In this document: positions 10,266 through 58,192 of the stretch, in pieces
Numbering within the stretch: position 1 is the stretch's first letter
Layout of the letters: every line of letters begins with the position of its first letter
Origin: Squalus acanthias
Lineage: Eukaryota
Reading direction: 5' to 3'
NCBI GenBank assembly: GCA_030390025.1
Contig: CM059431.1
Location: forward strand, 133,674,001-133,738,000
DNA: 64,000 nt
Position numbers and translations under genes: made by a program
The notes under the pieces: generated by a model
What the model saw: the letters and a program-made list of their open reading frames with translations, nothing else
Database searches by the model: none
What the model was told of the DNA's origin: nothing

Positions 10266-10270
10266 CTAGG

Positions 10271-26046: not shown

Positions 26047-26089
26047 TCACCTGAGGAAGGAGCAAATCGATAGCTCCGAAAGCTTGTGA
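26047..26089 (+). ncRNA. Minimal type-I hammerhead ribozyme
   Basis: Stem I TCAC/GTGA; core CTGAGGA; extra A; stem II GGAGC/GCTCC; GAAA; palindromic AGCT in place of stem III; predicted cleavage after 26085. Confidence 0.85.
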
Positions 26090-26232
26090 TTTCAAATAAA
26101 ACTGTTGGACTATAACCTGGTGTTGTGCGACCTCTCAATTTTTTCCTAAAACTCACCATTGAAACCAAGACGAGAAGAGATTAGCAATTCATGGAGCTCA
26201 TTAAAAGTCAGGCAAATAGATCAATAAATACT

Positions 26233-27342
26233 TGCCTAGAAATTTGAATAGGCCGGAAACCTGCCAGTAACAGCGCGGGCCAAGGCTAACCGGCTGCCCG
26301 CAAAAAGAGCGCAGGCAGCACCGGTATTTTGGTGCTACCTGCTAATTTACATGAGCGGAGTGGAGAATCTGTTGTGCAACACGCTCTTTCCGGAGCTAAC
26401 CTCAGCAGGAGGTGTGTGCTCCACCATGGTGCTGGAGGGGGAGGGGGATGGGGATGCACCATCTTGCAGCTCACAGTGACAGTGCTCTAGCCTGCATATC
26501 ACAAAGGGGAATCACTCCCTGGTGAGTGGCTCTTAAAGCACAGGCTCAGATCTGGAGGGACTGTGACTGGAAACGTCACATAAGACGGCAGAGATGTCCT
26601 TAAACCGTTGCATGAGACATCAATGGAAATAAATTTTTAAGAAAAGGGGAACATGAACTTTTGGTCAGGAGTTTATTGGTGTAAATGGTGCAGAGGAGAG
26701 TTTATTAAATTTTTAACAACAGCAGAATTTCAAAAAATCTTGTTGAGAATATGTTGTCAAGCCTTTTGAAAGCAGACTTCCAAACTTTGCATATCATTTT
26801 TTAGTTCCTAAACTAGAAAATCCCAATGTATAAAATTTAAGGAAATGCAACTTTGATATTTCCTGAGATTATTATAACAGTAGTACAGTACAGTTTATTT
26901 TAAAAGTATTTACCTCCTATACTGTTTGACTGACCGGGGGGGAGATTTGATGCATCTCATTGGAAGCAGTTTTCACTCCAATAGCTCTCCATAGTTACCA
27001 GTTATCTCAGCAGCTGTTTATTGTATGGGCTCTAGCTCACTGCCGCTTTCTCCCTCCTCTCTGCGCTGTCAACATCTGCATGCATGGGCGTGCTTTGGAG
27101 AGGGCGGTAAGAGGAGCAGCAAGCTCCAAAATGGATGAGCGTGAGTCAATTCGGGGTTGTACGCCAATTGAAGACACGCTCCTGCTAATTAAATACTTGC
27201 CGCGAGCACAGGCAACGGCAGTGCTGCCGAAAATGGCGGCGGCCGCGGGACCCACTGGAAGCAAATGGAAGTGAGGTCGGCTCCATTTTTTTCAACAAAA
27301 CAAGCCTTAACGGCCAGCGCTAACACCTCCAATTTCTAGGCC
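26233..27342. mobile_element. Non-autonomous Harbinger-type element nested in a larger Harbinger
   Basis: TIRs GCCTAGAAATT / AATTTCTAGGC. Confidence 0.6.
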
Positions 27343-27454
27343 ATTCAGTGCTCACAGCTACTTTCTTACCTCCTACTGGGAAAGGGTTTGTTGAAAGTAC
27401 TTGTGGTGAGAGGCTAATTTGTGCACTTTGGAGGTATTGAAGCTCAAGATCCAG

Positions 27455-28568
27455 ATGGCTGGTGCCATGGCTGCTTTAGATTGGACCTCGAACGAGGAGC
27501 AAGATGATGATTAGCAGCAGCAACATTCAGGTGTGGAGAGACCGGCAGGTGGTCAGCAGAGAGGGGGGGGCAGCAGAGGGGTCGAGCTCGCAGGAGGCAT
27601 TACCGTGTAACAGGATGTACAGGCAGAGGCTCAGCTTCCTTGACCTCTCAGAAGAGCAGTGCTTCCGGAGGCAGAGGGGCAGATGTTGTCGTGTCAGGTG
27701 GTGGCAGACATCTGCAGCCTTCTAGGAGAAGACCTGCTCCCTGCCGGACCTGGTGCCCATGTGGCTGTCAAAGTAACCACTGCCCTCAACTTTTTTGCCT
27801 CTGGATCCTTCCAGGGCACTACCGGAGACATATCCAGGATCTCCCAGTCAGTTGCAAAGAAATGCATAAGGCAGGCCACTGATGGATTGTTTGCCAGGGT
27901 CGACAATTATGTCAACTTCGCCTGTGATGACGCCAGTCAGAATGAACAGGTGTTCGGGTTTGCGGCTCTGGCTTGTCTTCCACAGATGCAGGGCATCACT
28001 GACTGCACACGTGTGGCAATCTGCCCACCCCTAGATCAACCAGGAGTATTCGTGAACCACAGGGCCTTTCACTCCATCAATATGCAGCTGCTGTGCAACA
28101 ACAAGAAAAAGTTTATGCAGGTGTGCACCAGATTCCCGGGGAGCTGCCATGATGCTTTCATCCTGCGGCAGTCCAAGCTCCACGACCTCTTTGGACCTGC
28201 AAGCAGAATTAAGGGGTGGCTGCTAGGAGACAAAGGATACCCCCCTTCAAACTTGGCTGACGACGCCCATGAGAAACCCAACCAATGAAGTCCAAGAGCA
28301 GTACAACAAAAATCATGTGACAACAAGATGTGTCAATGAGCAACCGATCGCCATGCTCAAGATGCACTTCAGGTGCCTGGACAGATCTGGAGGCATCCTT
28401 CAGTACTTGCCTGCATACAACATTGCACAGCAGCGAGGATTGGAGCTGCAGGAGGAAAAAGGCACTGAGCACACATCATCTGGGGACAAATCCAATGAAG
28501 AGGAGAAGAAAGATGGTGACCCCAACGCGGAATCAGCCGCTGCCTGGGTGCCTGGAATTCCCTTATAG
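27455..28568 (+). pseudogene. PIF/Harbinger DDE transposase (HARBI1-like), frameshifted
   Basis: KVTTALNFFASGSFQ, ISQS, GITDCTRVAI, FHSINMQLLC, RFPGSCHDAFIL, LLGDKGYP, YNKNHVTTR..EQ...LKMHFRCLD, spread over three frames. Confidence 0.9.
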
Positions 28569-29314
28569 CTGCAAGGCTCAGTTAGTCACTACCACTCAAA
28601 CAATCTAACAATCACCTGCAATGGCCACTATCACCCCCACCCCCCCCACCAAACCCACTGTCACAAAGCAGTCCTGTAACCAACCCCATTGCATATCCCC
28701 CCATTGGTCCCCATCAATTCATGCCTTCCCTTCATCAACAAGCATCTGAAAAGGCAAGTTGCCACCCGGCAACCAAGAATGGGCAAGAGAAGAAAGTGGT
28801 GTAAAGTAATACATTTTATGTGATTGTACTAAAGAATGGAAACTTAACAGCATAACATAGAAACATAGAAGATAGGAGCAGGAGTAGGCCATTTGGCCCC
28901 TTTTCCTACCACTCCCATGAGGTAGAGGCAGGCTGCTCAGATCCATGCTGTGACTGTCAAGATGTTCTTGGCCGATGACCTCTGGGTGTTGAAGCCTGAG
29001 GGCCCCGCCAAAGACTGCTCCATCTGCACCTGTGCAGGGGAAGACTCAGCCATCGGGGGAGGAGGCAGCATATCGGGTACCGGCTGAGTGGGGAGAGGGG
29101 CATCAGGTGAGAAGTGGGAGCATTTCGAGTGGAGTTCCCACTTCCAGGTCCCCTTTCACCATCATCCCTCTCATGGGCCAGCCACACTTCACTCCTACCA
29201 CTCTGCTGGAGAGCAGCTTGGTGCAGATCAGTGGCACTTGTAATGCCAAGGCTAAGGTTTCTGTAATCCTATTTAAGGCACCAGACATGTTGACATCCAG
29301 GGTCTCATAGCCAT

Positions 29315-29955
29315 GGCCAAGGCCTGCATGGTGCCCAGAATTGTCCACAATACTCTAGCTGAGGCCTAACCAGTGATCTGCCACTTCTCTTCTAGGAATG
29401 CCCACAGTGATTTGTAAAGTTCCAGCATGATCTCTTTCCTTTTATATTCTCTGCCTCTATTTATAAACCCAAGTAACCCATATGCTTTTTTACTACCTTA
29501 TTAACTTGCCCTGCCATCTATAAGGAATTGTGTACATGGACAACAAGGTCTCTCTGCTCATCTCCACTTTTCAAAATCGTGCCGTGCACTGTATACTGTC
29601 TTTCCATGTTAGTCCTCCCAAAGTGCATCACTTCACACTTCTCCACATTGAACTCCATCTGCCATGCTTCTGCCCATTTCACCATCCTGTCTATGTCATC
29701 CTGAAGCCTATCACTATCCTCATCACTATCTACTACATTGCCAAGTTTCGTATCGTCTGCAAACTTTATAATGCTACTCCTTACATCCTAGTCTAGGCCA
29801 TTTATAAAAATTGAAGAGTAATGGACCCAAAACTGACCACTGCAAACCACCTCCCAGTCTGAAAAACACTCATCCATCATCATCCTTAGCTTCCAGTCAA
29901 TGAGCCAATTCCATATCCATACCACCACTTTCCCCTTAATTTCCTGGGCTTCCAA
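29315..29955 (-). mobile_element. CR1 RT fragment
   Basis: Minus strand encodes KFADDTKLG and WQMEFNVEKCEVMHFG. Confidence 0.8.
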
Positions 29956-30607
29956 TGATTATCCTTTTCATTGAGAGCCCCCGGGATACAACATCTGTGT
30001 CCAGCTGAGCAGAGCTTGAAGAGGGCTGCATCCTCTGAGGCGGACTCTCCACAGCGCTCCCTACCACAGCTGTCTGCTCTTGCTCACTTGTGAACTGTGA
30101 GTCACATGGTGAAATCCCGACTAACTACTTAGCTGGACCCACCGAAGTGCGAGTATCTGCACTGGTGCATGGTAAGCAGGAGTCCTGTGATGGTGCACCC
30201 TCAGAAGGAATCAGCTCCACTGAGGATTCATCGTCCCAGAGGTCCATTGACTGCTGCTGTACACGTGAAGGCCCTGGTGGAGAAAAAAGATATAAATTAG
30301 TACTAGCAAGATAATAATGTTGCAACTTAACATTATGAAGATATTTCACTCGCTGCTGAAATCAAATCAACATGACTGAATGTTGTATGTCATTTGAGTT
30401 GCTGTTATTTAATTCTGTTACCAGGTAGCTGCGAGGTCCCAATCTCTCCATCTCCAATGGTCAGAGACACCGAAATGCCATTAATCTCCATCACTTCCTC
30501 CACTGCAGCTAGTAACTGCATGATCTGTGAAGGACCACCTCCGGTCCTCTCCCTGTCCCTAGGGTTCTGTGCTCTCTTCTTCAACGGGGGAAAGAATAGA
30601 CCTATGA

Positions 30608-31250
30608 AAAAAATGTATTCGTTCATGGGATGTGGGCGTCGCTGGCAATCCCAGCATTTATTCCCCATCCCTAATTGCCTTTGAGAAGGTGGCAGTGAGC
30701 CGCCTTCTTGAACCGCTGCAGTCCGTGTGGTGAAGGTACTCCCACAGTGCTGTTAGGGAGGGAGTTCCAGGATTTTGACCCAGCGACGATGAAGGAACGG
30801 CAATATACTTCCAAGTCAGGATGGTGTGTGACTTGGAGGGGAACTTGGAGGTGGTGGTGTTCCCATGCGTCTGCTGCCCTTGTCCTTCTAGGTGGTAGAG
30901 GTCGTGGGTTTGGGAGGTGCTGCCAAAGAAGCCTTGGCGAGTTGCTGCAGTGCATCTTGTAGATGGTACACACTGCAGCAACGGTGCACCGGTGGTGGAG
31001 GGAGTGAATGTTTAAGGTGGTGGATGGGGTGCCGATCAAGCGGGCTGCTTTGTCTTGGATGGTGTCGAGCTTCTTGAGTGTTGGAGCTGCACTCATCAGG
31101 CAAGTGGAGATTATTCCATCACACTCCTTACTTGTGCCTTGTAGATGGTGGAAAGGCTTTGGGGAGTCAGGAGGTGAGACACTTGCCACAGAATACCCAG
31201 CCTCTGACCTGTTCTTGTTGCCACAGTATTTGTGTGGCTGGTCCAGTGAC
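30608..31250 (-). mobile_element. 3' end of a second non-LTR retrotransposon (CR1/L2 group)
   Basis: IYKAQVRSVME...KKLDTIQDKAARLI...SWNSLP...FKKAAH; its tail GGGCAATTAGGGATGGG..ATAAATGCTGG recurs at ~1080 (+) and ~62440 (-). Confidence 0.8.
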
Positions 31251-32954
31251 TGTAATGGCACATGTTCACCCAATGGATGCAGTGCATTTGGTGAGGCTGA
31301 CTATCAGGGAGAGGCATCAAATTGCATAAAGATTAGGGTGAGTGACAGTGGTGGACGGATAGATGGGGATGTGAGGAAGTCCATAGAAAGAGAACAATGG
31401 GTGCACTTGCAAGGTAAGTGGTTGTGAGTAGTTATGTGATGGAGTAGGCTTGACAAGGCAGAGTGAGACGGCAGGGGAGTTGATCTGTACAACAGGATGT
31501 AGGTGAATGTGTAACTATACTCACCTTTCCTGACCCGGATAAGTCACTAAGGCGCTTCCTGCACTGAATCCAGGAGCATGCCATAATGCTCCTGGTGCTG
31601 ACCTCCTCAGCTACCTCCAGCCATGCCTTCTTTGTTGCAGCGGCAGATTTCTTCCGCCCATTGCTGGGGAAGAGTATCTCTCTCCAGCTCTGCACTAACC
31701 CCAGCAGTACATCAAGCGATGCATCGTTAAATCAAGGCGCATCCCGTGACCATGAATCCACGATGAAACTTCACCCTCTCTTTGTTCAAACTCCTAACCC
31801 CTCTAAATTCCATCTTTGGATTGGCCCTTTAAATACTGGAGTTGAGATCATGTCATGCGGGTCCACACCACACCTGCAAACCCAGAAGTAATTTTATAAT
31901 TAGGTGGCTGCGTTAAGATGCCACAGACCGACAGTTCTTCCAGGTTTCCCACTTGATATCGCACCCCACCGTTCTGAACGTGCCTCAGAGTTATTATTGG
32001 GGCCATTCTGTCCGTACATACTGCGACCCATCCCCATGTTATCAGTTCTTAGCCATTGCTCCTAAAGGTGTCCCTGTTAAATAACCTGTTGTTCCTTTCT
32101 GTGCCGGGCCCCGGTACCTTTGATGAGTAGCGCCGCTCTCGATCTGCCATTATTCTACTTACTTTCCAACAAATTGTGGTGCAGATTTTCCATTGGAGGA
32201 TTGGGGAGCATAACAGTCTAATTTATGACATTTGTTGCCAATATCACCATTGTGTTAAATTCCAGGCCTTTGACTGCTCGTGCGCTGCTTTTTCTATTTT
32301 GGTTGTGTTGGCTGTTGTAGCTGACGTTAAATTTTCCAAAAAATTATCTGGCTGAGGCTACAGTGCAATTGTGACCAGGGATTTCGGCAAAACTGTGGTT
32401 GGAATTCTGGGTTTGACAATTAGGATGCCATTGTGGCAGGAAGAGGAGGAGGAGCAGCAGCAGGATGAGTCCACAGACCTGCAGCTGCAGGGAGAAAAGG
32501 CAGAAGGAAGGAATCTCGCAGGAGCCCTTACCTTACTAGAGTGTGGAGGCCTGCAGTCTAGCAAGGAACAGTGTGTGAGGAGGTTCAGCTTTTCGAGGGA
32601 GGCAGTCACAGAGCTATGTTACCTGCTGCAGCACCAACTGCAGCCCAGCATCAGGTCACACTCGTCCTTGCTTGTTGTTCTGAAAGTGACTATGGCTTTA
32701 ATCTTTATGCCTCAGGGTCATTCCAGGCTGCAGTAGGTGACATTAGCAGCATTAGTCAATCTGTTGTGAATGCCTGTTTCAAGCAGGTGACAGATTTGTT
32801 CTTCACCAGAGCCAACAAGTTCCTCTTCTTCCCTACAGAGGCTGCAAATGAGGAAGATGGGACAAGCAAGGCCCACCTATCCTGCCATCTGCAAGAGCTC
32901 TTCAACAGCAGGTCATCCAGGAGTGCTTCAGCTAAATCATCCATATTCTCCTGC

Positions 32955-33160
32955 ATCAACAACAATAATTTGCATTTATATTGCTCCTTTAACGTAGTAA
33001 AAACAGCCCAAGGGGCTTCACAGGAACGATTATCAAACAAAATTTGACACTGATATTGGGACAGGTGGTCAAAAGCTTTATCAAAGAGGTAGGTTTTAAG
33101 GAGTGACTTAAAGGGGGAGAAAGATAAAGAGGCAGAGAGGTTTAGGGAGGGAATTTCAGA
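32955..33160 (-). mobile_element. L2 3' tail
   Basis: Matches 2565-2765. Confidence 0.8.
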
Positions 33161-33358
33161 GGTCAATGGGAAGCTGCAGCATACAAGTGACCACTCTATG
33201 GGGCACCAGATTGACATTCTGAGTGTGGGAGGGACAGAGTTCAGTCGCGAGAGGAAAATGGTCAAACACCTTAAGGGACACTTCCTCCAGCCTTGCCATC
33301 TGCCACACTTTGTGCTTTCTCTCCGCCAATTACATTGATGGCCACCTCCATCATTGGT

Positions 33359-33574
33359 CATGATGCGGAGATGCCGGTGTTGGACTGGGGTGGACAAAAA
33401 TGAGAAGTCGCACAACACCAGGTTATAGTCCAACAGTTTTATTTGAAATCACAAGCTTTCGGAGCGCTGCTCCTTCGTCGGGTGACCCGACGAAGGAGCA
33501 ACAGCTCCGAAAGCTTGTGATTTCAAATAAAACTGTTGGACTATAACCTGGTGTTGTGCGACTTCTCATTTTTG
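33359..33574. mobile_element. Fold-back insertion of two Penelope 3' ends with two hammerhead motifs
   Basis: Arms 33391-33483 and 33485-33578 are reverse complements except for loop II; 12-bp direct repeat TCCATCATTGGT at 33347-33358 and 33575-33586. Confidence 0.9.
33449..33485 (-). ncRNA. Hammerhead motif with U4C core variant (mirror copy on + at 33485-33520)
   Basis: Minus strand TCAC-CCGACGA-A-GGAGC-AGC-GCTCC-GAAA-GC-TT-GTGA. Confidence 0.7.
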
Positions 33575-33775
33575 TCCATCATTGGTGCCAGCTCTTGAAT
33601 TGCTGGTGGCTCTCCCTTGGTCCTTTTGATCTCTCTTCTTTTGGGCACCAGCTTGTCCTGCAAGAAGAGTGTTAGTGTGTGGCCTGTTGAAGGGGTGTGA
33701 AGATGTATGTGGTAGCTTAGCATAGATTACCTGGTGAGAGAAGTAGCAGGTGTTTGGAAGATGGTCCAGTAATGA

Positions 33776-35690
33776 TAAACATAAGAACATAAGAAATAGG
33801 AGTAGGAATAGGCCGATTGGCCCCTCGAGCCAACTCCGCCATTCGATAAGACCATGGCTGATCTTGGGCTCAAAGCCACTTCCCCGCCCGCTCCCCATAA
33901 CCCTTCACTCCCTTATCTTGCAAAAATCTGTCTATCTCCACCTTAAATGTATTTAATGACCCAGCCTCCACAGCTCTCGGGGGCAGAGAATTCCACAGAT
34001 TTACAACCCTCTGAGAGAAGAAATTCCTCCTCATCTCAGTTCTAAAAGGGTGACCCTTTATTCTAAAACTGTGCCCCCTAGTTCTAGATTTCCCCACGAG
34101 GGGAAACATCCTCTCTGCATTTACCTTGTCGAGCCCCCTCAGTATCTTATATGTTTCAATAAGATCACCTCTCATTCTTCTAAATTCCAAAGAGTATAGG
34201 CCTAGCCTGCTCAACCTTTCCTCATAAGTCAACCCCCTCATCTCTGGAATTAACCTAGTGAATCGTCTCTGAACTGCCTCCAATGCAAGTATATCCTTCC
34301 TTAAATTAGGAGACCAAAACTGTACGCAGTACTCGAGGTGTGGTCTCACCAATACTCTGTACAGTTGTAGCAGGACGTCCCTGTTTTTATACTCCAACCC
34401 CTTTGAAATAAAGGCCAACATTCCATTTGCCTTTTTGATTACTTGCATGCTGACATTTTGTGTTTCATGCACAAGGACCCCCAGGGCCCTCTGAACTGTA
34501 GCATTTTGTAATCTCTCTCCATTTAAATAATAATTTGCTTTTTTATTTTTCCTGCCAAAGTGTATAACCTTGCACTTTCCCACATTATACTCCATCTGCC
34601 AAATCTTTGCCCACTCACTTAGCCTGTCTATATCCCTTTGCAGATTCTTTGAATCCTCTGCACAACTTGCTTTCCCACCCATCTTTGTATCATCCGCAAA
34701 CTTGGCTACATTACACTCGGTCCCTTCATCCAAGTTATTAATGTAGGTTGTAAATAGTTGAGGCCCCAGCACCGATCCCTGTGGCACCCCACTAGTTACC
34801 GTTTGCCAACCGGAATATGACCCATTTATCCCGACTCTCTGCTTTCTGTTAGTTAGCCAATTCTCTATCCATGCTAATATATTACCCCCAATTCTGTGAG
34901 CTCTTATCTTATGCAGTAACCTTTTATGTGGCACCTTATCGAATACCTTCTGGAAATCCAAATACACCACATCTACTGGTTCACCTTTGTCCACCCTGCT
35001 CGTTACCTCCTCAAAGAACTCCAGCAAATTTGTTAAACATGATTTCCCTTTCATAAAACCATGCTGACTCTGCTTGACTGCATTATGATTTTCCAAATGC
35101 CCTGCTACTGCTTCCTTAATGAAGGACTCTAGCATTTTCCCAATGACAGATGTTAGGCTAACTGGTCTATAGTTTCCTGCTTTCTGTCTCCCTCCTTTCT
35201 TAAATAGGGGTGTTACATTTACGGTTTTCCAATCCGCTGGGACCTCTCCAGAGTCCAGGGAATTTTGGTATATTGCAACCAATGCATCCACTATCTCTGC
35301 AGCCACTTCTTTTAAGGCCCTGGGATGCAGGCCATCTGGTCCAGGGAACTTGTCGTCTTTTAGTCCCATTATTTTACCAAGTACTATTTCCCTAGTGATA
35401 GTGATTGTCTTTAGTTCCGCCCTCCCTGTGGCCCCTTGATTATCCATTTTTGGGATGTTGTTAGTGTCTTCTACCGTGAAGACAGATACAAAATATTTGT
35501 TCAGAGTCTCTGCCATTTCCCCGTTCTCCATTATTAATTCCCCAGTCTCATCCTTTAAGGGACCAACGTTTACTTTAGCTACCCTCTTCCTTTTTATATA
35601 TCTGTAGAAGCTCTTACTATCTGTTTTAATGTGTCTTGCCAGTTTTCTCTCTCAATTCATCTTCTCTCTCATTATTATTTTTTTAGTCAA
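33776..35690 (-). mobile_element. Young 5'-truncated CR1
   Basis: AACATAAG-type tail repeats at ~33778; uninterrupted RT frame. Confidence 0.92.
33870..35531 (-). CDS. CR1 ORF2 reverse transcriptase region, 553 aa open frame (no endonuclease)
   Basis: PGPDG, NYRPVSLTS, QHGF, YLDFQKVFDKVPH, GVPQGSVLGP, KFADDTK, RPHLEYC. Confidence 0.85.
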   Translation of the reverse strand: MENGEMAETLNKYFVSVFTVEDTNNIPKMDNQGATGRAELKTITITREIVLGKIMGLKDDKFPGPDGLHPRALKEVAAEIVDALVAIYQNSLDSGEVPADWKTVNVTPLFKKGGRQKAGNYRPVSLTSVIGKMLESFIKEAVAGHLENHNAVKQSQHGFMKGKSCLTNLLEFFEEVTSRVDKGEPVDVVYLDFQKVFDKVPHKRLLHKIRAHRIGGNILAWIENWLTNRKQRVGINGSYSGWQTVTSGVPQGSVLGPQLFTTYINNLDEGTECNVAKFADDTKMGGKASCAEDSKNLQRDIDRLSEWAKIWQMEYNVGKCKVIHFGRKNKKANYYLNGERLQNATVQRALGVLVHETQNVSMQVIKKANGMLAFISKGLEYKNRDVLLQLYRVLVRPHLEYCVQFWSPNLRKDILALEAVQRRFTRLIPEMRGLTYEERLSRLGLYSLEFRRMRGDLIETYKILRGLDKVNAERMFPLVGKSRTRGHSFRIKGHPFRTEMRRNFFSQRVVNLWNSLPPRAVEAGSLNTFKVEIDRFLQDKGVKGYGERAGKWL

Positions 35691-36414
35691 GAACATTAAC
35701 AGGTGCAGAGTGTGCAAGTGGAAGTAGAAGGAGATACATTGAAGTGTGTTTCATTGATTAGAGAGATAAAAAAATGGATGTGGAATGGTTTGTTAGTGCC
35801 AAGGCTACACCAGAGTGGTTAAGGGCTGCATAGATTATTTTTAAAAATGTGAATGAGAATCTTACATTAGCAGCTCTGTTCAGGTCATTGATTGTCTTCT
35901 TACATTGCTGCCAGGTTCATGATGTCAGACTCCTGGCATTCACGCGCTCTATTGCCTCTGTCCACTGTTGCAGGGCTATCTGGCGGGACAGTTTGCCCGT
36001 CTGCAGGAAACAACACCTCTTTCCTCCTGGTCACCTCATCCACCAAGACCTCCACCACACTGTCCGAGAAATGGGTAGCTCAAGTAACAGATATTTTGCT
36101 TGCAGCAGCAGTTCTGCTTTCACCAAAGGCACCATCAATATAAGAGATGCAGGCTGCCAATTACAAGCATGAGAACTGCTGACTATGCAAATGAGGCACA
36201 CTCCACCAAATAAATCCACTTTGCACCCATTTCAGGTGATTGTTGAAGATTTCCCCAGTGCAGTTTTGAATTTGTTTTATTGGACCAAAAAAGGTTGGGA
36301 GGTCATAATGCAAGTCTTTAACTGCTGAGAGGCATAGATAATATAGATATGAGCAGGTTATTTGACTTAGACTGTGAACAGGGAACTGTAGGTTATGGAG
36401 ATACAGAGATCTCT

Positions 36415-36720
36415 GCATTCCTGCAATTCTGGCCTCTTGTGCATCCCTGATTCCATCACCCCACCATTTGCGGCCATGCCTTCAGCTGCCTAGGCCCTAA
36501 GCTCAGGAATTCCCTTCCTAAATTTTTCTGCCTCTCTATCTCTCTCTCCTCCTTTAAGACACTCCTTAAAACCTACCTCTTTGACCAAGTTTTTGGTCAC
36601 CTGTCCTAATATCTCTTTATGTGGCTCGGTGTCAATTTTTGTCTGATAACAGATCTGTGAAGCGCGTTGGGGTGTTTTACTACGTTAAAGCTGCTATAGA
36701 AATGCCAGTTATTATTCTTG
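36415..36720 (+). mobile_element. L2 3' tail
   Basis: Reverse complement of 2570-2860. Confidence 0.8.
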
Positions 36721-45984: not shown

Positions 45985-46275
45985 GTACCCTAACCTCGGT
46001 GATCGGTAAATTATTGAAAAAAATTCTGAGGGACAGTATTAATTATCATTTAGAAATGCACAGATTAATCAAGGACAATCAGCATGGATTTGTTAAGGGA
46101 AGGTCATGTCAGAGGAGGTAACAATGAGGGTCGATGAGGGTAGTGCGCTTGATGTAATCTACATGGATTTTGACAATGTCCCACATGGCAGGTTGGTCAG
46201 TAAAGTAAAAGCACATGGGATCCAAGGGATAGTGGCAAGTTGGATCGAAAATTGGCTCAGTGGCATGAAGCAGGT
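45985..46275 (+). mobile_element. CR1 RT fragment
   Basis: QHGFVKG and DVIYMDF..VPH motifs. Confidence 0.8.
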
Positions 46276-46759: not shown

Positions 46760-46916
46760 TCTCATCTGAAAGACAGCACCTCCAACAGTGCAGCACTCCC
46801 TCAGTACTGCACTGGAGTGCCAGCCTAGATTTTTGTGCTCAAGTCCCTGGAATGGGACTTAGAACCCACTACCTTCTGACTTAGGGGCGAGGGTGCTATC
46901 AACTGAGCCACGGTTG
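46760..46916 (-). mobile_element. DeuSINE 5' part
   Basis: Matches 10105-10260. Confidence 0.8.
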
Positions 46917-48644
46917 ACACCAATGTATATAAACAGCATTGTATGTAAACAGCATTGTATATAAAATTCAGCCTAAACCCAGAAGAGCAGTGGCAGGACG
47001 GGTTCGAAGTTTTTCCTGATTAGGGGCCGCTGCAAAATATAGGGCATCATAAAATGCACTTGTGTAGCTCTTCATGTACTCACTATCAATCCTGAGGCAG
47101 AGGCGTACACAGGTAGGAAGGACTGTTATTCTACTAATTTCGGTAACACTGACAGGAAAATTTTACATGGGAAAGATTATTTCCCAGAGAGAACTCATAA
47201 TTCTTAAATTCTGAAGAAAATCCCCTTTTGAAAGTGAAAAGAGAATGGCCGATTGGTTCCTTGGGTATATGGGCTGAGCATTGCAACCACAGTTGATGAC
47301 ACCACTACCACAATCTTAATATAGGATCACAAAATAGATATTGTATGCATATGTGCATAGAAGAACATCAATAGGGCACACTATTGGTATTCCGAGGCAA
47401 CAGTTTCAATGCCTAGACCAATATGGACCAGAGACGGTCTATAATATAATTGTTGTATGCTGCACATTGTGTAGCATTGTGATCAACAAAGACCTCAACA
47501 TGCATTTGAATGAACAGTCGCTGAAAGCCATGGCCAAGGACCAAGAGCTGGCAGGCAGAGAGTTGCAAAAATAATTGATTGCCTCTTTCTTTCAAGAAGC
47601 TGTGGCTTTGGGCACAACTAATTTATAGTTGTGTACAGATTGCAAAACAATGTTAGCTTATGTGATCTTTTGTTGAATTGTATTTATACTTAAAGCATAA
47701 TGTGGTTTAAAGTGACTAAACTTAATTTCCTTAATTAATCTCTGTACATACGTACGCTACTTGTTTAGTGTGGTTGTCTATTGTGGTGCCCTGCAGTGAT
47801 GCATGCACATCCAAGTAAAAATAACTGATGGTGTCTACTGTTGAGTGATCCCTAGTGGGTGTAAAACGAGTGATGGGGAAATGGAAGCAAATCATGGAAA
47901 AGGCCGACTACTTCTATCTGTGACAATATCTGATGGATCAGCATCAATGCAAGCTGTATTCATAGCTGCTGCCACTGTGAGCTGTATGCTTTCACAGGTA
48001 CAGGTTCCTGTTATTTGGGTATGGGTTTGCACTTGCTCAGAACTGTCACTTGCTTGAGTGTCAGATTTGCTCTCACTGCACCCATAGGTACTTGGGGAGG
48101 TCATAACTTTCCAGGGTCCAAAGGTCAGTGTGAGCACAGAAATTTGACCAGCAAGATGTTTTAGCTACTTCTCCTTTGTGCATGTATAAAAATTTGCTCG
48201 TTCAAAAAACACGCAACCCGACTACTCTGAATAGGAGCTGCTATTTCCCGCAATAGTCAATCTCAATAAATGTAACACACTTTGCCTGCCATAGCTCATC
48301 TCCAGAATTAATTTTGTATTCTTGTGGCGGTCACTGAGATACAATTTCAGTGTGTCATATAACTACTACAAGCTCTTTTAATGCACTGTTTGCCATTGCT
48401 TTTGGGCTAGTGTATAAGAGACTTTGGGTTAGATTTTCAACCTGCCATCCAGGCGTAAAACTGGCACTGCGGATCAGCTGCCTGTCATAGAAACACTAGA
48501 TTTTTATTTCCATTGAAATCACATCTTAATTTTCTCCTCAAGTTACACTCCTCATAATATTATAGCATAGTACCATCCTACTTCTAACTGAATAATACAT
48601 TTCATCACTGAGAACTTAGATGCTTGTGTTGCTTTGTTTGTGAC

Positions 48645-49435
48645 CAGAGGTGCATTTTGGAAGGAGGAATAAAGAGGCCACAGACTCCTTGGAAAATAAG
48701 AATCTAAATGGGGTAGAGGAGCAAGGGAATCTAGGGGTACACATTCTCAAATTATTAAAAGTAGCAATGCAAGTTAACAAAGGCATAAAAATTCCAAACA
48801 AAGCACTGGGGTTCACTGCTAGAGGAATAGAATTGAAAAGCAGGTACATTATGATAAACTTGTATAGAACCTTAGTTAGATCATACGTGGAGTACTGTGT
48901 ACAGTTCTGGTTTCCATATTACAAAAAGGATATAGAGGCACTGGTGAAGGCTCAAAAAAGATTTACTGGAATGATACCAGAACTGAAAGGTTATTCATAT
49001 CAGGAAAGATTGAACAGGCTGGGGCTCTTTTCTCTCGAAAGAGAAGGCTGAGGGGTGACCGAAAGGAGGTCTTTAAAATTATGAAGGGATTTGATAGGGT
49101 AGATGTAGAGAAGACGTTTCCACTTGTGAGAGAGTCCAAATCTAGGACCATAAATATAACATATTCACTAATAAATCCAATAATAAATTGAGGAGAAACT
49201 TCTTTACCCAGAGAGTGGTTAGAATGTGGAACTTTCAACCGCATGGAGTAGTTGAGGCGAAGAGCATAGATGCCTTTAAGGGGAAGCTAGATAAGTACAT
49301 GAGGGAGAAAGGAATAGAAAGATATGCAGATAGGGTTAGATGAAGAAGGGAGGGAGGAGGCTCGTGTGGAGCATAAACTCCAGCACAGACTAGTTGGGCC
49401 AAATGGTCTGTTTCTGTGCTGTAAATTCTATGTAG
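48645..49435 (+). mobile_element. CR1 3' portion
   Basis: HFGRRN, LVRSYVEYCVQFWFP and CR1 tail. Confidence 0.88.
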
Positions 49436-49619
49436 AACATTGGGCAGGATCATCCAGGTTACAGTCTAAAAGATTGTGCACACAGCTTTTAGGCCAGTTT
49501 TAAACAATAGAAAATCTGTCTACCAATCTTTGTCATAGCAGTCAGCATCGAAATTCTGCTGCCAGAAAAATAAGACATTCGTTCAAAATTCACTTGTAAT
49601 ACTGTAATTGGAAATACTT

Positions 49620-51202
49620 GTCTTAAAGGCATTTGATAAAGTGCCACACAATAGACTTATTAGTAAAATTGAATCAAAGAATTAAAGGGCAGTGGCAGTG
49701 TGGATACAAAATTGGCAGTGAGATAGAAAGCAGGGAGTAGTGGTGAACGGTTGTTTTTTGGACTGGAGGAAAGTATACTGTGATGTCCCCCAGAGGTCGG
49801 AATTAGGACCACTGCTCTATTTGATATATATTAATGACATGGACTTGGGTATGAGGGGTATAATTTCAAAGTTTGCAGATGAGGAGGACAGTAGCAGACT
49901 TCAGGAGAACATTTTAAAAGGGTTGCAGGAACAGGGCGACCTGGGGCTTCACATACACAAATCTTGAAGGTGCCAAGACAAGTTGAGAAAGCTGTTAAAA
50001 AAAGCATACGGGATCCTTGGGCTTTATAAACAGAGGCATATTATAAAAGCAAGGAAGTTATGCTCAATCTTTATAAGTCACTGGTTAGACCTCAGCTAGA
50101 GTATTGGCCCAGATTTTGTGGTAGCAGGGCATCTATCCTTAGTTAGACTTGCCCTTGCACATTTAGGTTTTTACATTTTTTGCATGGCAAGTTTCTGAAA
50201 GTGCGATCTGGTAATGGCGCAGCAAGGGAAACAGGGCATCTGGGACTTGAGTGAACAGGGCAAGCACTGTATATCTCCTTAAACAGTCAGATTGAAGGGT
50301 TAAGAAATAAACAGAGAAACAACGGAGAAGGAAGTATATATTAGAGTGGGTGAATTCAATGCCAAATCAGGTACAGAAAGAGAAATAAAGAGAGGGAAAT
50401 AAATATTGGATTAAGAGAGAAAAAAAAAGACCGAAAAGTAAAGTAAACCGCACAAATACAGCAACTTCACACCATTCAATGCATTTCAATGGTAAGGCAG
50501 ACAGCGAAATATCGTTTTTGTAAAGTGAATGGCTGAGCGATGCAATTTGGACAGCAACTTTTGGGTATTAGCATTCAACCGTGCACCTGCCCCTCACTTG
50601 AATTTGCTGTACCTTTTATGCTTAAATAACAGCGAGCACCATTATTTTGACAGCAAAATTTGAACCAATGTGTCCAATTCTGGGCACCACACTTTAGAAA
50701 TAACGTCAAGGCCTTGGAGAGGGTGCAGAGGAGATTTACTAGAATGGTACCAGGGATGAGGGGTTTCAGTTATCTGGAAATATTGGAGAAGCTGGAGAGT
50801 GTTCTCATTGGAGCAGAGAAGGTTAAGGGGAGATTTAATAGAGGTGTTCAAAATTATGAGGGGTTTTGATAGAATAAATAGGGAGAAACTATTTCCACTG
50901 GCAGGAAGATCGATAGCTAAAGGGCACAGATTTTAAATAATTGGCAAAACAGTCAGGGGGAGGTGAGAAGAATTTTTTTTCTTCAGTGAGTTGTTATGAT
51001 CTGAAATGCATTCCCTGAAAAGGTGGTGACTGCAGATTCAATGCTAACTTTCAAAAAGGGAATTAGATCTCTATTTAAAAAGGAAACATTTGCAGGGCTA
51101 TGGGGAAAGAACAAGGGAGTAGAACTAATTGGATTACTCTTTCAGAGATCCAGCACAGACAAGATGGGCCGAATGGCCTCCTTCTGTGTTGTATGATTCT
51201 AT
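49620..51202 (+). mobile_element. CR1 3' portion split by a MITE
   Basis: KAFDKVPH onward; CAGCTAGAGTATT and GTGTCCAATTCTGG rejoin across 50106-50667. Confidence 0.85.
50106..50667. mobile_element. Harbinger-type MITE
   Basis: TIR GGCCCAGATTTTG / CAAAATTTGAACC; flanks ATT/AAT. Confidence 0.7.
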
Positions 51203-51274
51203 AATATCATAAATGAGCCATTTCATCTATTCAAAAAACTTCTCCCTCAAAGAACAGAAAATATAACTGAGTAC

Positions 51275-51438
51275 AGAGTGCTGATTGTAACCTTCAGCGG
51301 TGGTGAAAAAAAGGCGGTGACAGATTGGCTCTCCGTTATACATGGAGTCAATGGAAAGGAAAATTATCAAGGTATATAACAGGTGGATAATCCGCTACTG
51401 CCCATTTTCTGCCACCATCGAAAGTAAAAATCTGCTCT
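51275..51438. mobile_element. Short imperfect palindromic MITE (half copy at ~48426-48520)
   Basis: GGTGGTGAAAAAAAGGCGGTGACAGATT...GTTATA is mirrored by TATAAC...AATCCGCTACTGCCCATTTTCTGCCACC. Confidence 0.55.
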
Positions 51439-53129
51439 CTAATCTTATTGCTAGTTATACAATTTACCAAACTGAAAGGTTTAACTGTAAGCGCACAAAG
51501 GCAACCACATGTAACTGAAAATCATCAAAGCATTTAGTGCACTGTAGTTTTAAAATTTCAATAACACTTGAAGGCAGGCAAAACATTGAGTTCAGTAATA
51601 AAGGTTCGGTATGCAAGATCCAAATGTGGCCACTCAGGAGAATATTGACATGGATCCAATAAGTCCACCTGGTGGAACAAGGGCTTGGCCCATCATCTAG
51701 CTTCAGTGATTCTGGTAAGTTTTACATTTGTTTATCAAACCACCTCTTCAGAATTTCAGTCTAATTTTTTATCTATTCCCCATTGTACAATATCTGTTGC
51801 AATAATGTATAATGAAATTCCTTTAATGCATACATAATTGACTTGTTCCAATATCAAATCCATTGTCGTCCGTTGATTCCATACTTTTTTGATGTTCAAA
51901 TGGCTGAAAAATGTTGCTATGCTATAGCACTTGTTGCCCTTTGGCATTTTATGTATAGTGCAACATGAACTGAGTAAAACCATATTCTCCTTATATCTTC
52001 ACAGATGATTCATCAACATCTTCATCCTTCAGGTAGGAACAAGACCAATCAATTGGGATTTCAAAGGAAGAGGTGCCTGGTTAGCATGATGAATCTGGTA
52101 TAGCTGAGGAAGACTTGGGACACAGAAGCCATGCACTGAAATGCATTTAGGGAGAAGATCCTTCAGTACTTGGCTGAGCAGCAGTAGGCAATATTTCATA
52201 TGGAGGTATGGCCAGATAAGAGGGACACATTAGCCAGAGTGCACAGCTGATACCCTTTCATCTTCCTTACCACAATTCCCAGTGCACACAGGAGCAGTAC
52301 CTTCGCTCCAAATGTCAGAAACCATGTACATTTTGGGACACTGTGCAGTGTGGGTTCAATCAGGTGCATGGGGACATAAGTGCACTGTAAGATGTTTTGC
52401 AATCATTAGCTGTCACAGAATCACTCTGGTTTTAGCAATGCTGATCCAGTCCTTCTACTTACTATGCCAGAATACAGTTTTCAAGAATCAGCTGAAGGTC
52501 GTCTTGAGGAGAATATTGAGGAACAGCCTTTGCAACAACTTCTTGGGACACACCTAAAGGAGCACTAAAGCACTAATAGATTAAAGATAGATTACACACC
52601 TTTATGTGTAGTAGTCATCATTCCTTGAGATAAAATATTTGTAATATGCCACAGGTAAGGTTAGAATACATATAAGTCACTTTAAAGGCATTTTAACTAG
52701 AATCCATGTAATTTCCCTCTAGGCCATTTTTCATACATTTGTTGCAAAGATTCCTGTCCTTGCACTACTTTTAATATCATTTTTAGTCTTTGCTACTCCT
52801 GATATCATTCTCTTTCATCTCCTTTTAGGGAAGGACTTTGGTTGATGGAAGAGACTTCCAGAGGGAGAATGGTGACTGGAATTGGTTATCTGACATCCTT
52901 CCCCTGAACTTTGCTATTATCATTAGGGCACTTTCCAATGGGATTATTTCTACTTGGTGCTTGGTGTTGGTCTGAGCCATACAGTTATGATTCTACCCTG
53001 TCATGGAGACAACTGCCATTTCTGTTAACCTCTAACATATCTCTATTACAGTTACCTTTGGAATTAATCTGTTCTGTTACCTTGTCCCTCTGCTTTGTAG
53101 CTTCTGTCATGTGCTCCATTTAAAAGTGT

Positions 53130-53337
53130 CAGCATGCCACTTTCAACTTTGTATCAGAAAGTTGTGTAGTCAAGCCCCACTCCAGGAATTGACCACATAA
53201 TCTAGGCTGGCATTTGAGTCCAGTACAGAGGGGATGCTGCATTGTTAGATATGTTGCCTTTTTAATGAAATGTTAAACTGAGGCCCTTTCAGTTGAATGT
53301 AAAAGATCCCATGGCAGTATTCAAAGAAGAGCAGAGG
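53130..53337 (+). mobile_element. DeuSINE 5' half; the 3' half is at 56149-56346, split by a CR1
   Basis: ...AAGAAGAGCAGAGG resumes as CCTGGCCAACATTTATCCCTCAA after the CR1. Confidence 0.8.
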
Positions 53338-56148
53338 AATAGAATCATAGAATGGTTACAGCACAGAAGGAGGCCATTCGGCCCGTTGAGCCCATGCCGG
53401 CTCTGCAAGAGCACTTCAGCTCGTCTCATACCCCCGCCCTTTCCCCGTAGCCCTGCAATATTTTTTTCTTCATGTACTTATCCAATTCCCTTTTGAAAGC
53501 CACAATTGAATCTGCCTCCACCATCCTTTCAGGTATTGCATTCCAGCTCCTAACCACTCGCTGCATAAAAAAGTTTTTCCTCATGTCGCCTTTAGTTCTT
53601 CTGCCAATCACCTTAAATCTGTGTCCTCTGGTTCTCGACCCTTCCGCCAATGGGAACAGTTTCTCTCTCTCTACTCTGTCCAGACCACTCATGATTTTGA
53701 ACAACTCTATCAAATCTCCTCTCAACCTTCTCTGCTCTAAAGAGAATAACCCCAGCTTCTCCAGTCTATCCACGTAACTGAACTCCCTCATCCCTGGAAC
53801 CATTCTTGTAAATCTTTTCTGCACCCTCTCTAAGGCCTTCACATCCTTCCTAAAGTGCGGTGCCCAGAATTGGACACAATACTCCAGCTGAGGCAGATCC
53901 AGTGTTTTATAAAACTTCATCATAACTTCCTTGCTTTTGTACACTATACCTCTATTTATGAAGCTCAGGATCCCGTATGCTTTTTTAACCGCTTTCTCAA
54001 CCCGCCCTGCCACCTTTAATGATTTGTGCAAATATACCCCCAGGTCTCTCTGTTCATGCACCCCCTTCAGAATTGTACCCTTTACTTTATATTGCCTCTC
54101 CTCATTCTTCCTACGAAAATGTATCACTTCGCACTTTTCTGCGTTAAATTTTATCTGCCACAAGTCCGCCCATGCCACCAGCCTGTCTATGTTTTCTTGA
54201 AGTCTATCACTACCCTCCTCACTGTTGACTATACTTCCAAGTTTTGTGTCATCTGCAAATTTTGAAATTGTACCCTGTACACCCAAGTTCAAGTCATTAA
54301 TATATATCAAGAAAAGCAGTGGTCCCAGTACCGACCCCTGGGGAACACCACTGTATACCTTCCTCCAGTCTAAAAAACAACTGTTCACCACTACTCTGTT
54401 TCCTGTCACTTAACCAATTTCTTATCCATGCTGCCACTGTCCCTTTTATTCCATGGGCTTCAACTTTGCTGGAAAGCCTATTATGTGGCACTTTATCAAA
54501 CGCCTTTTGGAAGTCCATGTACATTACATCAACTGCATTGCCCTCATCAACCCTCTCTGTTACCTCATCAAAAAACTCAATCAAGTTAGTTAAACACGAT
54601 TTGCCTTTAACAAATCCATGCTGGCTTTCCTTAATTAATCCATACTTGTCCAAGTGACTGTTAATTTTGTCCCGGATTATCATTTCTAAAAGCTTCCCCA
54701 CTACTGAGGTTAAACTGACTGGCCTGTAGTTACTGGGTTTATCCTTACACCCTTTTTTGAACAAGGGTGTAACATTTGCAATTATCCAGTCCTCTGGCAC
54801 CAGCCCCGTATCCGAGGAGGATTGGAACATTATGGCCAGTCCCTCTGCAATTTCCACCTTAACTTCCCTCAGCATCCTAGGATGCATCCCATCCGGTCCT
54901 GGTGACTTATCTACTTTAAGTACAGCCAGCCTTTCTAGTACCTCCTCATTATCAATTTTTATCCCATCCAGTATCTCAACTACCTCCTCTTTCACTATGA
55001 CTTTGGCAGCATCTTCTTCCTTGGTAAAGACAGATGCAAAGTACTCATTTAGTACCTCAGCCATGCCCTCTGCCTCCATGCGTAGGTCTCCATTTTGGTC
55101 CCTAATCGGCCCCACCCCTCCTCTAACCACCCGTTTACTATTTATATGCCTATAGAAGACTTTTGGATTTCATTTTATGTTAGCTGTCAATCTACTCTCA
55201 TACTTTCTGTTTGCCCCTCTTATTTCCTTTTTCACTTCCCCTCTGAACTTTCTATATTCAGCCTGGTTCTCACTTGTATTCTCAGCCTGACATCTGACAT
55301 ATGCCCCCTTTTTCTGCTTCATCTTAATCTCTACCTCTTTCGTCATCCAGGGAGCTCTGACTTTGGTTGCCCTACCTTTCCCCTCGTGGGAATGTACGAC
55401 TGTACCCGAACCATCTCCTCTTTAAAGGCAGCCCGTTGTTCGATTACAGTTTTGCCTGCCAATCTTTGATTCCAATTTACCCGGGCCAGTTCCATTCTCA
55501 ACCCACTGAAATTGGCCTTCCTCCAATTAAGTATTTTTACTTGAGATTGCTCCCTGTCCTTTTCCATAGCTAATCTAAACCTTATGACACTGTGATCTCT
55601 AAATGTTTCCCTACTGACACTTGCTCTACTTGACCCACCTCATTTCCCAGAGCCAGATCCAGCAATGCCTTCTTCCTCGTTGGGCCAGAAGCGTACTGAT
55701 CAAGAAAGTTCTCCTGAACACTCATCAAAAATTCTTCCCTCTCTCTGCCCTTTACACTATTACTATCCCAGTCTATATTTGGATAATTGAAGTCCCCCAT
55801 TATCACTACTCTATCGTTCTTGCACCTCTCTGTAATTTCCCTGCAAATTTGCTCCTCTATATCCTTCCCACTAGTTGGCGGCCTATAGAATACACCTAGT
55901 AGTGTAATGGCACCTCTATTGTTTCTCAACTCTAACAAAATAAATTCTGTCCTTGACCCCTCCAGGACATCCTTTCTCTCCAGCACTGTAATATTCTCCT
56001 TAATCAATACTGCCACCCCACCTCCTTTCTTTCCTTCCCAATCTTTCCTGAACACCTTATATCCAGGAATATTTATTAGCCAATCCTACCCTTTTTTACA
56101 CCAGGTCTCTGTTATCGCCACAACATTATATTCCCATATGTCTATTTG
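53338..56148 (-). mobile_element. CR1 with most of ORF2 (APE endonuclease + RT), frameshifted
   Basis: EN: GGGVAVLIK, FYRPP, MGDFNYP, LLDL (55582-56055); RT frames 54297-55130 and 53426-54409; ATAGAATC tail. Confidence 0.93.
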
Positions 56149-57801
56149 CCTGGCCAACATTTATCCCTCAACTAGCATCACCAAAACAGACTATCTCATT
56201 GCTGTTTGTGGGAACTTTCTGTGTGCAAATTAGCTGCCATATTTGCATACAAATCAACAGTGACTACATTTTGCAAGTAATTTATTAGCTGTGAACTGCT
56301 TTAGGACATCCTAAGTATGTGTAAGGCACTATATAAATGCAAGTTCTTTTTTTATATTACTCACTGCATGTTGTTGGGATACTTCTATCTGAACTCTCTA
56401 ACAAAAATCGGCTCAAAGTGGGTGGGGGATCTGCTGCAACCTCCTAAACTCGATGACACAAGGTACGCCATTTTAAGGTAATGCTTCATTTCTACAGTAA
56501 GAGCAAGCTGTCAGTGCTACTTAGACTTGTAATTGGCAGCTTGCCCATTGGGGTTGGGCAGAAATCTAGCAAGGCTCCCATGATTTAAAGGTAGCCTGCA
56601 TCTCTTAAAGGGTAGGTGCCTTTAGTCTATGGTGAATGTCAGAGATGCTGTTGTAAAAAGAATGTCTACTGCTACAGCCCCCTGTTTCTCAGACAGTGCC
56701 ATAGAGGTTTTGGTGTTAGAGATAACCAGGAGGAAGGAGGTGTTGATCTCCGCAAAAAGGCACAGAGTGCCCTATCAGATAGCCCTGCAACAGTGGGCAG
56801 AGGTAACAGAGCATGTGAATGCCAGGGGTCTGGCAGAATGGATCTGGCAGCAATGTAGGAAGAAGTTCAATGACTTGACCAGAGCTGCTAAGGTAAGATT
56901 CCCAATCACAGCTTTTTTGCAATCTGCACAGCCCTGCATCACTCTACTGTAGCCCCAATATTAACAAGCCCTGCCACCTGCACTTTCTATCTCTCTCCAA
57001 TCACAGCAGCACACTTCAATTTACTTGTTCCTGCTTCCACTTGCACACACTGCACCTGCTCCTGCCCTCACAGTTACTGCTCCCTCTTCCACACACCTGC
57101 TACCTTTTTCTATTCACTAATCAAAGTATGCTAAGCTGCTACAGATGCCTTTACAATGGCATACCTCGTATCAACAGTCCACATATTAACACGGTCATAC
57201 TCTTCCTGCAGCACAAGCTGGTGTACAACAGAAGGGAGCAACTATCAATCCAGGAGCTCACATCAATGGAGGATTGGCAATAGCTGTTATCGGCAGAGGA
57301 AGAGCACAAAGTGTGGCAAATGATGAGGCTGAAGGAAGTGTCCCTGAAGGTGTTTGACCATTTTCCTCTCCTTTTCACTTGAGAATGAATTCTGCGCCTC
57401 ACACCCTCAGAATGACAACCAAATGGCCCATAGAACAGCCATTCATCTGCTGCAGTTTCTCATTACTGCTATGTGCTAACTCTTGTCCATCTCACCTTTT
57501 TCTAAGTCCTTTGTACATCCTGGGACCAGCTGCAGAAGAGGAAAAGGAAGGCAGCCCTCATAAAGAAGCACCATCACTCATTCTGACTCTTGCAAACGCC
57601 AGCGCAGTAATCAGCACTCTGCGTACTTTAGGTAATGAGTTTTAGGGTCTGAAACTGGGAGATTCCCCATGCACAGGAGAGGAGGAGCAAGGGCAGGGGA
57701 AAGGATGACACCTGACATACCTCTCCAGAGAGCGAGCTCACATCCTAGCTCTGCTGCAGAGGCACAGATGAGGGCTTCCAGGGCCCAGCCTTTAAAAGAA
57801 G

Positions 57802-58192
57802 GGATATCGGGTTCATGTCACGCTACAGAACGTGACTTGACATTGTTGTCTGTCTTTCCAGTTTTTAAAAAACAAACACAAAAAAAAACACAAAAAACAA
57901 ACCCCAAAAAAGACGGAGAGAGAGGAAGGGATATGGAGAGAGATCTGCTGCAGTCAGCAGCTTTTGACACGTTGGACCCCCTGGGACACATCTCATTGTC
58001 TTGGCTGTGCTCTTGGTGTGTCTTTGATGTAAGGAAAGATTGTATCTCTGCAGTATCTGTGTTTATATTCTATGAACTTTTGTAGATTCACTCATTATAA
58101 CCTTACCTGAAGAAGGGGCGATAGCTCCGAAAGCTTGTAATTTTAAATAAATCTGTTGGACTATAACCTGGTGTTGTGCGACTTCTCATATT
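57802..58192 (+). mobile_element. Short 3' copy of the Penelope family (last codons + 3' region)
   Basis: Aligns to 25680-26140; 11-bp direct repeat TTTAAAAGAAG at 57791-57801 and 58193-58203. Confidence 0.88.
58103..58140 (+). ncRNA. Minimal type-I hammerhead ribozyme
   Basis: TTAC-CTGAAGA-A-GGGGC-GATA-GCTCC-GAAA-GC-TT-GTAA; stem I covaries relative to the 26047 copy. Confidence 0.85.

What the first reader, a model, noticed from the sequence alone, without database searches (positions are those of the whole stretch)
26047..58140. Two core-intact, covarying hammerhead ribozymes on the claudin-10 pre-mRNA strand within one intron
Seen: copies at 26047-26089 and 58103-58140 both keep CUGANGA, GAAA and UH. 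Their differences preserve structure: stem I TCAC/GTGA vs TTAC/GTAA (compensatory), stem II A-U to G-U, and variable N7 and loop II. Established: Penelope-like elements carry minimal type-I hammerheads whose palindromic stem III (here AGCU) works as a dimer. Inference: both lie in the sense orientation of a 57-kb intron, so one nascent transcript carries both partners and could cleave itself co-transcriptionally, linking a retroelement ribozyme to host splicing. The covariation may only reflect selection in the active element lineage.
Basis: partly seen in the sequence, partly recalled or inferred. Interest (0 to 1): 0.8.

Follow-up and report, generated by a model that had tools for sequence, protein, structure and literature searches.

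The report
Retrotransposon hammerhead relics in claudin intron
The two small self-cutting RNA motifs are real, but they are the standard tail pieces of two separate, recent jumping-gene insertions of a very abundant known family, and nothing suggests they work together to cut the host gene's RNA.

Summary
Both motifs are exactly as described and lie sense in a 56,867-nt claudin intron. Each is the 3' pseudo-LTR of its own 5'-truncated Penelope-like (PLE) insertion with an 11-bp target-site duplication. One pattern fitting both has 57,782 exact genomic matches. Two on one strand of 57 kb is therefore ordinary: 7% by Poisson, 18 of 192 strand-tiles empirically. An intact core is the norm (36,603 of 39,984 copies). 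The stem I 'covariation' separates subfamilies (36,603 C-G, 10,107 U-A, 502 mixed), and both motifs recur letter for letter elsewhere (2,308 and 324 matches). Site 2 is an empty pre-insertion site in 3 of 3 laid runs of related organisms; site 1 is 99.75% identical to another copy. A double hammerhead swaps stem I strands, so the heterodimer has a C-A mismatch at one junction. Published PLE hammerheads cleave weakly or only with the element's protein. Verdict: neutral relics of a known kind. Cleavage itself was not testable. The scan reported the same on four other loci.

The parts
4940..5159 (+). First coding exon in the window of a claudin gene (claudin-10b-like by recall)
5160..62026 (+). 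56,867-nt GT-AG intron holding all the copies
23827..26142 (+). Insertion 1: 5'-truncated Penelope-like element (about 2.3 kb) between 11-bp target-site duplications at 23816-23826 and 26143-26153; 99.75% identical over 1,594 nt to locus L071
23823..25664 (+). Remnant PLE ORF, 613 aa stop to stop: DKG motif, YIDD reverse transcriptase (RVT_1), CX4CX2C linker, GIY-YIG-like motif; lacks its N-terminus; one-base frameshift near its 3' end not shared by three close copies
26047..26089 (+). Minimal hammerhead, site 1 (stem I UCAC/GUGA, predicted cut 26085/26086); with 5 flanking nt it has 2,308 exact genomic matches
33359..33574 (.).
33449..33485 (-). Antisense hammerhead copy with U4 changed to C
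33483..33520 (+). Third sense copy: U4 changed to C, stem I broken by a G-G mismatch at the inversion junction, and sequestered in the hairpin
57802..58192 (+). Insertion 2: about 0.4-kb 5'-truncated PLE end (last codons of the ORF, 3' region, pLTR) between 11-bp target-site duplications at 57791-57801 and 58193-58203; absent at the orthologous site in runs X12, X13, X15
58103..58140 (+). Minimal hammerhead, site 2 (stem I UUAC/GUAA, predicted cut 58136/58137); 324 exact genomic matches
62027..62188 (+). Next claudin coding exon (162 nt)

Best explanation
Both motifs are passengers. Each is the minimal hammerhead carried in the pseudo-LTR of a Penelope-like retrotransposon (Neptune-type by its cysteine linker). 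Two different subfamilies inserted 5'-truncated copies independently and recently into a long claudin intron (shown: element anatomy, target-site duplications, copy numbers, empty site in relatives). The structure-preserving differences arose while the subfamilies were active, where two like copies in a tandem transcript, probably helped by the element's protein, form a double hammerhead (inferred from literature). At this locus each copy is single, has no like partner nearby, and most likely does not cut the pre-mRNA to any extent that matters (inferred).
For: 57,782 exact matches to a pattern fitting both sites in 3.71 Gb, control 0. Expected 0.44 per strand per 56.9 kb, P(>=2)=0.073; 10 of 96 plus-strand and 8 of 96 minus-strand tiles hold >=2 among the first 100 listed matches. 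Core intact in 36,603 of 39,984 copies with site-1-type arms. Stem I pair: 36,603 C-G, 10,107 U-A, 341 U-G, 161 C-A. Exact recurrences 2,308 and 324. Target-site duplications at all three insertions. Site 1 is 99.75% identical to L071. Single contigs of X12, X13 and X15 skip 57791-58192 with 11 letters fitting either side. Heterodimer junction UCAC/GUAA has a C-A mismatch. PMC4209133: monomer inactive, dimers and trimers low activity. PMC11167929: a vertebrate PLE hammerhead shows no cleavage without protein, and no RNA-seq reads begin or end at its cut site. PMC2995048 and PMC10919898 report that slow intronic ribozymes leave splicing intact.
Against: No cleavage assay or raw-read data for these copies. 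Both cores are intact and stem II folds stably in short context (P>=0.96 with 20-nt flanks; about 0.4-0.8 with 60-nt flanks). The other heterodimer junction (UUAC/GUGA, one U-G wobble) is only about 1 kcal/mol worse than homodimer halves (-18.2 vs -19.7 and -18.8), so a half-active heterodimer cutting 26085/26086 is not excluded. The folding model also scores the homodimers as less stable than free monomers, so it cannot predict absolute activity. The empty-site test was run for site 2 only; site 1's youth rests on identity to one paralogue. The intact-core fraction is conditional on intact arms and so favours young copies.
Confidence: 0.9

Rival explanations
1. The copies have no host function but are cut at a low rate in trans, by pairing with transcripts of their own abundant subfamily and with help from the PLE protein where the element is expressed; any effect on the host is a mild cost.
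For: Site 1 has 2,308 identical twins, so a perfectly matched partner exists if any twin is transcribed. A PLE hammerhead is protein-assisted (PMC11167929). Tandem retrozymes are reported as under-represented in frog introns and exons (bioRxiv 10.64898/2026.07.22.740005).
Against: Only a 4-bp stem III and two 4-bp stems hold the dimer. No reads at the cut site were found for the lizard element. The same preprint still finds 42-44% of frog retrozymes in introns. Strand bias within introns could not be tested here.
Confidence: 0.07
2. One reading: sites 1 and 2 pair in cis on the nascent transcript as a heterodimeric double hammerhead and cut the intron co-transcriptionally, tuning claudin splicing.
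For: Both sense, same intron, intact cores, shared AGCU palindrome. Site 2 lies 3.9 kb before the next exon. Intronic ribozymes that affect their host mRNA exist (CPEB3, PMC10919898). One of two junctions tolerates the pairing.
Against: 32 kb apart, rough effective concentration 26-210 nM (polymer estimate). C-A mismatch in the other junction; best fully formed heterodimer -14.9 vs -20.1 and -16.9 kcal/mol for the homodimers. Co-occurrence ordinary. Site 2 missing in relatives whose flanks are about 94-95% identical. The dimer could form only after site 2 is transcribed, shortly before the intron can be spliced (inference).
Confidence: 0.02
3. The motifs are chance look-alikes and not hammerheads.
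For: Rfam finds no hammerhead family at either site.
Against: They sit in pLTRs of a PLE with RT and GIY-YIG motifs and show the traits listed for PLE minimal hammerheads in PMC4209133. Stem I stays Watson-Crick paired in 46,710 of 47,212 counted copies. That Rfam's models miss a form lacking helix III is my inference.
Confidence: 0.01

Closest known systems
Minimal hammerheads (min-HHR) in pLTRs of metazoan Penelope-like elements (Cervera and De la Pena 2014, PMC4209133)
   Same: [quoted passage not shown]
   Different: Helix II is 5 bp (7-8 bp in the schistosome families described). Copy number (>=57,782) exceeds the about 4,000 and 9,000 reported there for coelacanth and frog, though the search methods differ.
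Neptune/Nematis-type EN+ PLEs (Craig et al. 2021, PMC8557442)
   Same: C-terminal GIY-YIG endonuclease, CX2-5CxxC linker upstream of it, DKG motif, inverted 5'-truncated copies, a short tail on one arm only.
   Different: Copies here are truncated and one is frameshifted; no tree was built, so Neptune versus Nematis is not resolved.
Anolis Poseidon element PAc hammerhead (PMC11167929)
   Same: Vertebrate PLE pLTR hammerhead with stems I and II.
   Different: Different PLE clade; its cleavage was measured (protein-assisted), these were not.
Domesticated intronic ribozymes: amniote RECK/CTCL hammerheads (reviewed in PMC6155905) and the CPEB3 HDV-like ribozyme (PMC10919898)
   Same: Self-cleaving motif on the sense strand of a host intron.
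   Different: Those are conserved at their loci across many species, and CPEB3 self-cleaves with a half-life of 2-3 min. These are multi-copy, lineage-specific, minimal dimer-type motifs inside recognisable insertions.

Membership tests
PLE minimal hammerhead (min-HHR) | Conserved core CUGANGA, GAAA, UH in type I order | tested here: met
   (H17 = U in both)
PLE minimal hammerhead (min-HHR) | Extra nucleotide between 9 and 10.1; G10.1-C11.1 pair | tested here: met
   feature list from PMC4209133
PLE minimal hammerhead (min-HHR) | Palindromic 15.2-16.2 with no stable helix III | tested here: met
   AGCU in both
PLE minimal hammerhead (min-HHR) | Located in the pLTR of a PLE | tested here: met
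   Site 1 follows an RT plus GIY-YIG-like ORF; site 2 shares three segments with that element's 3' region
PLE minimal hammerhead (min-HHR) | Self-cleavage as a dimer | not testable with these tools
   No assay; no raw reads were offered
Rfam hammerhead families (e.g. Hammerhead_1) | Match to the covariance model | tested here: not met
   no hammerhead family listed
Neptune/Nematis-type PLE | [quoted passage not shown] | tested here: met
   C-x4-C-x2-C at residue 490, GIY-YIG-like motif at 527; definition in PMC8557442. Pfam reported only RVT_1
Neptune/Nematis-type PLE | Placement in the clade on an RT tree | not tested
   No reference set was fetched
Domesticated intronic ribozyme | Conserved at the orthologous position in related species | tested here: not met
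Domesticated intronic ribozyme | Cleavage fast enough to compete with splicing; effect on host mRNA | not testable with these tools
   Only contigs available
Non-LTR retrozyme | Tandem array of at least two hammerhead-bearing units | tested here: not met
   No such array in the window; criterion from bioRxiv 10.64898/2026.07.22.740005

The most novel reading that the evidence does not exclude
With at least 57,782 mostly intact, recently spread minimal hammerheads, thousands of host pre-mRNAs in this genome carry sense copies. When the element is active, its RNA and protein could complete double hammerheads in trans on those introns (site 1 has 2,308 identical partners), imposing genome-wide, retroelement-driven intron scission. 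This would show as depletion of sense copies in introns and as cyclic-phosphate ends with host flanks. The cis heterodimer in this claudin intron is a narrower, less likely case (about 0.02).
Probability: 0.07. Interest if true: 0.6.

Novelty: new member of a known kind. Interest (0 to 1): 0.12.

Why it matters
As found, it matters little: another locus of a described class of retroelement ribozyme. The family is useful as material. Its size gives a clean genome-scale covariation table and enough copies to test whether sense-strand minimal hammerheads are selected against in introns, which bears on the open question of whether these ribozymes cleave in vivo. If locus-specific cleavage were found, it would show an early step by which retroelement hammerheads become host intronic ribozymes.

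Tried and rejected
Rfam scans: no hammerhead family; the listed weak matches (SscA, NiCo, ARRPOF, mir-879 and others) are far below their gathering scores and were rejected as chance, though the SscA alignment exposed the inverted pair. DNA similarity search of the own genome returned nothing; that search skips very common words, so it was replaced by pattern counts. RNA evidence: no RNA holder on record was listed and all 17 runs are contigs, so RNA ends could not be examined. Run X3 (RNA only by guess) covers both flanks of site 2 and bridges its left junction, but no contig spans the cut site with unique flanks; I draw nothing on expression or cleavage from it. Absolute dissociation constants from the folding model were rejected as meaningless because even homodimers score as unfavourable; only relative values are used. 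A motif-like string at 47211 (+) has a 3-bp stem II and no family similarity and was dropped. Comparing the two exon peptides with each other was uninformative. Lunse et al. (RNA Biol 14:1499) is not held; I saw only its title and citation in PMC6765202. PMC3365414 held nothing relevant. Not-in-print searches: hammerhead + Penelope + shark gave 4 papers, none by title or abstract on this family; claudin-10 + hammerhead ribozyme gave 0. Subscription papers are not searched, and the supplements of PMC4209133 and of the bioRxiv preprint, which I did not see, may list related cartilaginous-fish motifs.

Full report
Observation. Both motifs are present at the stated coordinates on the + strand. Each has a 4-bp stem I, CUGANGA, one unpaired A, a 5-bp stem II opened by G10.1-C11.1, GAAA, and the palindrome AGCU in place of helix III, followed by U17; the predicted cuts are 26085/26086 and 58136/58137. 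A claudin coding exon ends at 5159 and the next begins at 62027, with GT and AG ends, giving a 56,867-nt intron on the same strand. Pfam and PDB support a claudin (best match claudin-15); the name claudin-10 is recalled. The window is G000:C7, in a 3.71-Gb genome; that it is a shark is my recall and the wording of earlier notes, not a test. Rfam lists no hammerhead family at any site.

What the motifs sit in. Site 1 ends a 2.3-kb element whose ORF remnant (613 aa) matches RVT_1 and carries DKG, YIDD, a C-x4-C-x2-C linker and a GIY-YIG-like motif, the layout given for Neptune/Nematis PLEs in PMC8557442 (passages). The element is 5'-truncated, has no upstream pLTR, has a one-base frameshift not shared by three close copies, and lies between 11-bp target-site duplications. 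It is 99.75% identical over 1,594 nt to L071, the best of 80 loci compared. Site 2 ends a 0.4-kb fragment of a related subfamily, also between 11-bp duplications; its best match among 12 loci with the same motif is 96.0% over 402 columns. The inverted pair has a 12-bp duplication. These are three independent insertions.

Is the pairing more than chance? A pattern fitting both sites has 29,030 forward and 28,752 reverse exact matches; the reversed control has none. That gives 0.44 copies per strand in an intron of this length and P(two or more) = 0.073. Among the first 100 listed matches (5.5 Mb of C1), 10 of 96 plus-strand and 8 of 96 minus-strand tiles of 56.9 kb hold two or more. These are lower bounds, since only exact matches count. 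An intact core is also ordinary: with the core positions left free, 39,984 copies have site-1-type arms and 36,603 of them keep the full core; this ratio favours young copies.

Covariation. The stem I pair is C-G in 36,603 copies, U-A in 10,107, U-G in 341 and C-A in 161; independence would give about 16,171 mixed copies against 502 seen. The pairing is therefore real, but these counts are copies, not events, and may reflect very few changes in the active lineages. Site 1 with five flanking bases recurs exactly 2,308 times and site 2 exactly 324 times, so neither shows any change peculiar to this locus.

Conservation. I laid 57200-58560 on four of the 17 runs listed. In X12, X13 and X15 (three organisms, two studies, kind not on record but 2.0-2.7 Gb of contigs read) a single contig joins 57790 to 58193, skipping 402 bases with 11 letters fitting either side and 144-255 letters on the shorter side. 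The ends are TT..TT, not splice sites, so this is the empty pre-insertion site, in flanks about 94-95% identical. The fourth run, X3, nearly identical to the window, bridges the left junction and so carries the insertion. Site 2 is lineage-specific.

Mechanism. In a double hammerhead each core acts on the partner's cut site, so stem I forms between the 5' strand of one copy and the 3' strand of the other (structural reasoning). The heterodimer then has UCAC/GUAA with a C-A mismatch at one junction and UUAC/GUGA with a U-G wobble at the other. At 37 C the fully formed dimers score -20.1 and -16.9 kcal/mol for the homodimers and at best -14.9 for the heterodimer; a half-formed heterodimer scores -18.2 against -19.7 and -18.8. 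So the compensatory change works against partnership at one junction but does not exclude cutting at site 1. All dimers score above free monomers, so the model gives relative values only. A rough polymer estimate puts sites 32 kb apart at 26-210 nM effective concentration. In print, a schistosome min-HHR was inactive as a monomer and weak as dimer or trimer (PMC4209133, parts 1-2 of 4 read); a review calls PLE hammerhead rates very low even as dimers (PMC6765202, passages); the lizard PAc hammerhead cleaves only with protein and shows no RNA-seq ends at its cut site (PMC11167929, passages). Slow intronic ribozymes are reported to leave splicing intact, fast ones not (PMC2995048 and PMC10919898, passages citing Dye 2006 and Fong 2009). 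The best reading is inert relics (0.9); low-level protein-assisted cleavage in trans is the main alternative (0.07); the cis heterodimer is unlikely (0.02).

Comparison and novelty. The motifs meet every sequence criterion given for PLE minimal hammerheads and fail the conservation criterion for domesticated intronic ribozymes such as RECK, CTCL (PMC6155905, passages) or CPEB3. Intronic location is common for related elements: 42-44% of frog retrozymes overlap introns, although introns are under-represented after normalisation (bioRxiv 10.64898/2026.07.22.740005, passages). I found no paper on this family or locus in two targeted searches. Four earlier notes of this scan, one from this genome, reached the same reading on other loci; they are unchecked and add no independent support. 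Verdict: a new member of a known kind, interest 0.12. The one bolder reading left open concerns the whole family, not this gene.

Noticed in passing
window 33359-33574: Inverted pair of pLTR ends forms a near-perfect hairpin of about 95 bp on either strand (-173 kcal/mol for 33385-33585), a possible double-stranded RNA editing substrate in the pre-mRNA. Both arms carry U4 changed to C, a variant also seen at four places in the 100 listed.
   Followed up: partly
G000:C1, listings: Many family copies occur as minus-then-plus inverted pairs tens to thousands of bases apart; such pairs cannot form a same-strand double hammerhead. Matches the inverted 5'-truncated arrangement described for PLEs.
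   Followed up: no
G000, listing: The family has both C17 and U17 variants at the cleavage site; all four window copies have U17, which by recall is the slowest of the permitted nucleotides.
   Followed up: no
window 33870-35651 (-): 593-aa open reverse-transcriptase frame of a LINE-like element (RVT_1, E 3e-31), with many related fragments across the intron.
   Followed up: partly
window 27644-28288 (+): DDE_Tnp_4 (Harbinger-type by recall) transposase remnant (E 3e-15).
   Followed up: partly
window 57074-57464 and 33165-33351, 33631-33772: The flanks of insertions 2 and 3 belong to the same older repeat family (68-76% identity).
   Followed up: no
window 58120-58211 in runs X12, X13, X15: The relatives that lack insertion 2 hold very many contigs matching the pLTR end, so the element family is shared while the insertion is not.
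   Followed up: partly
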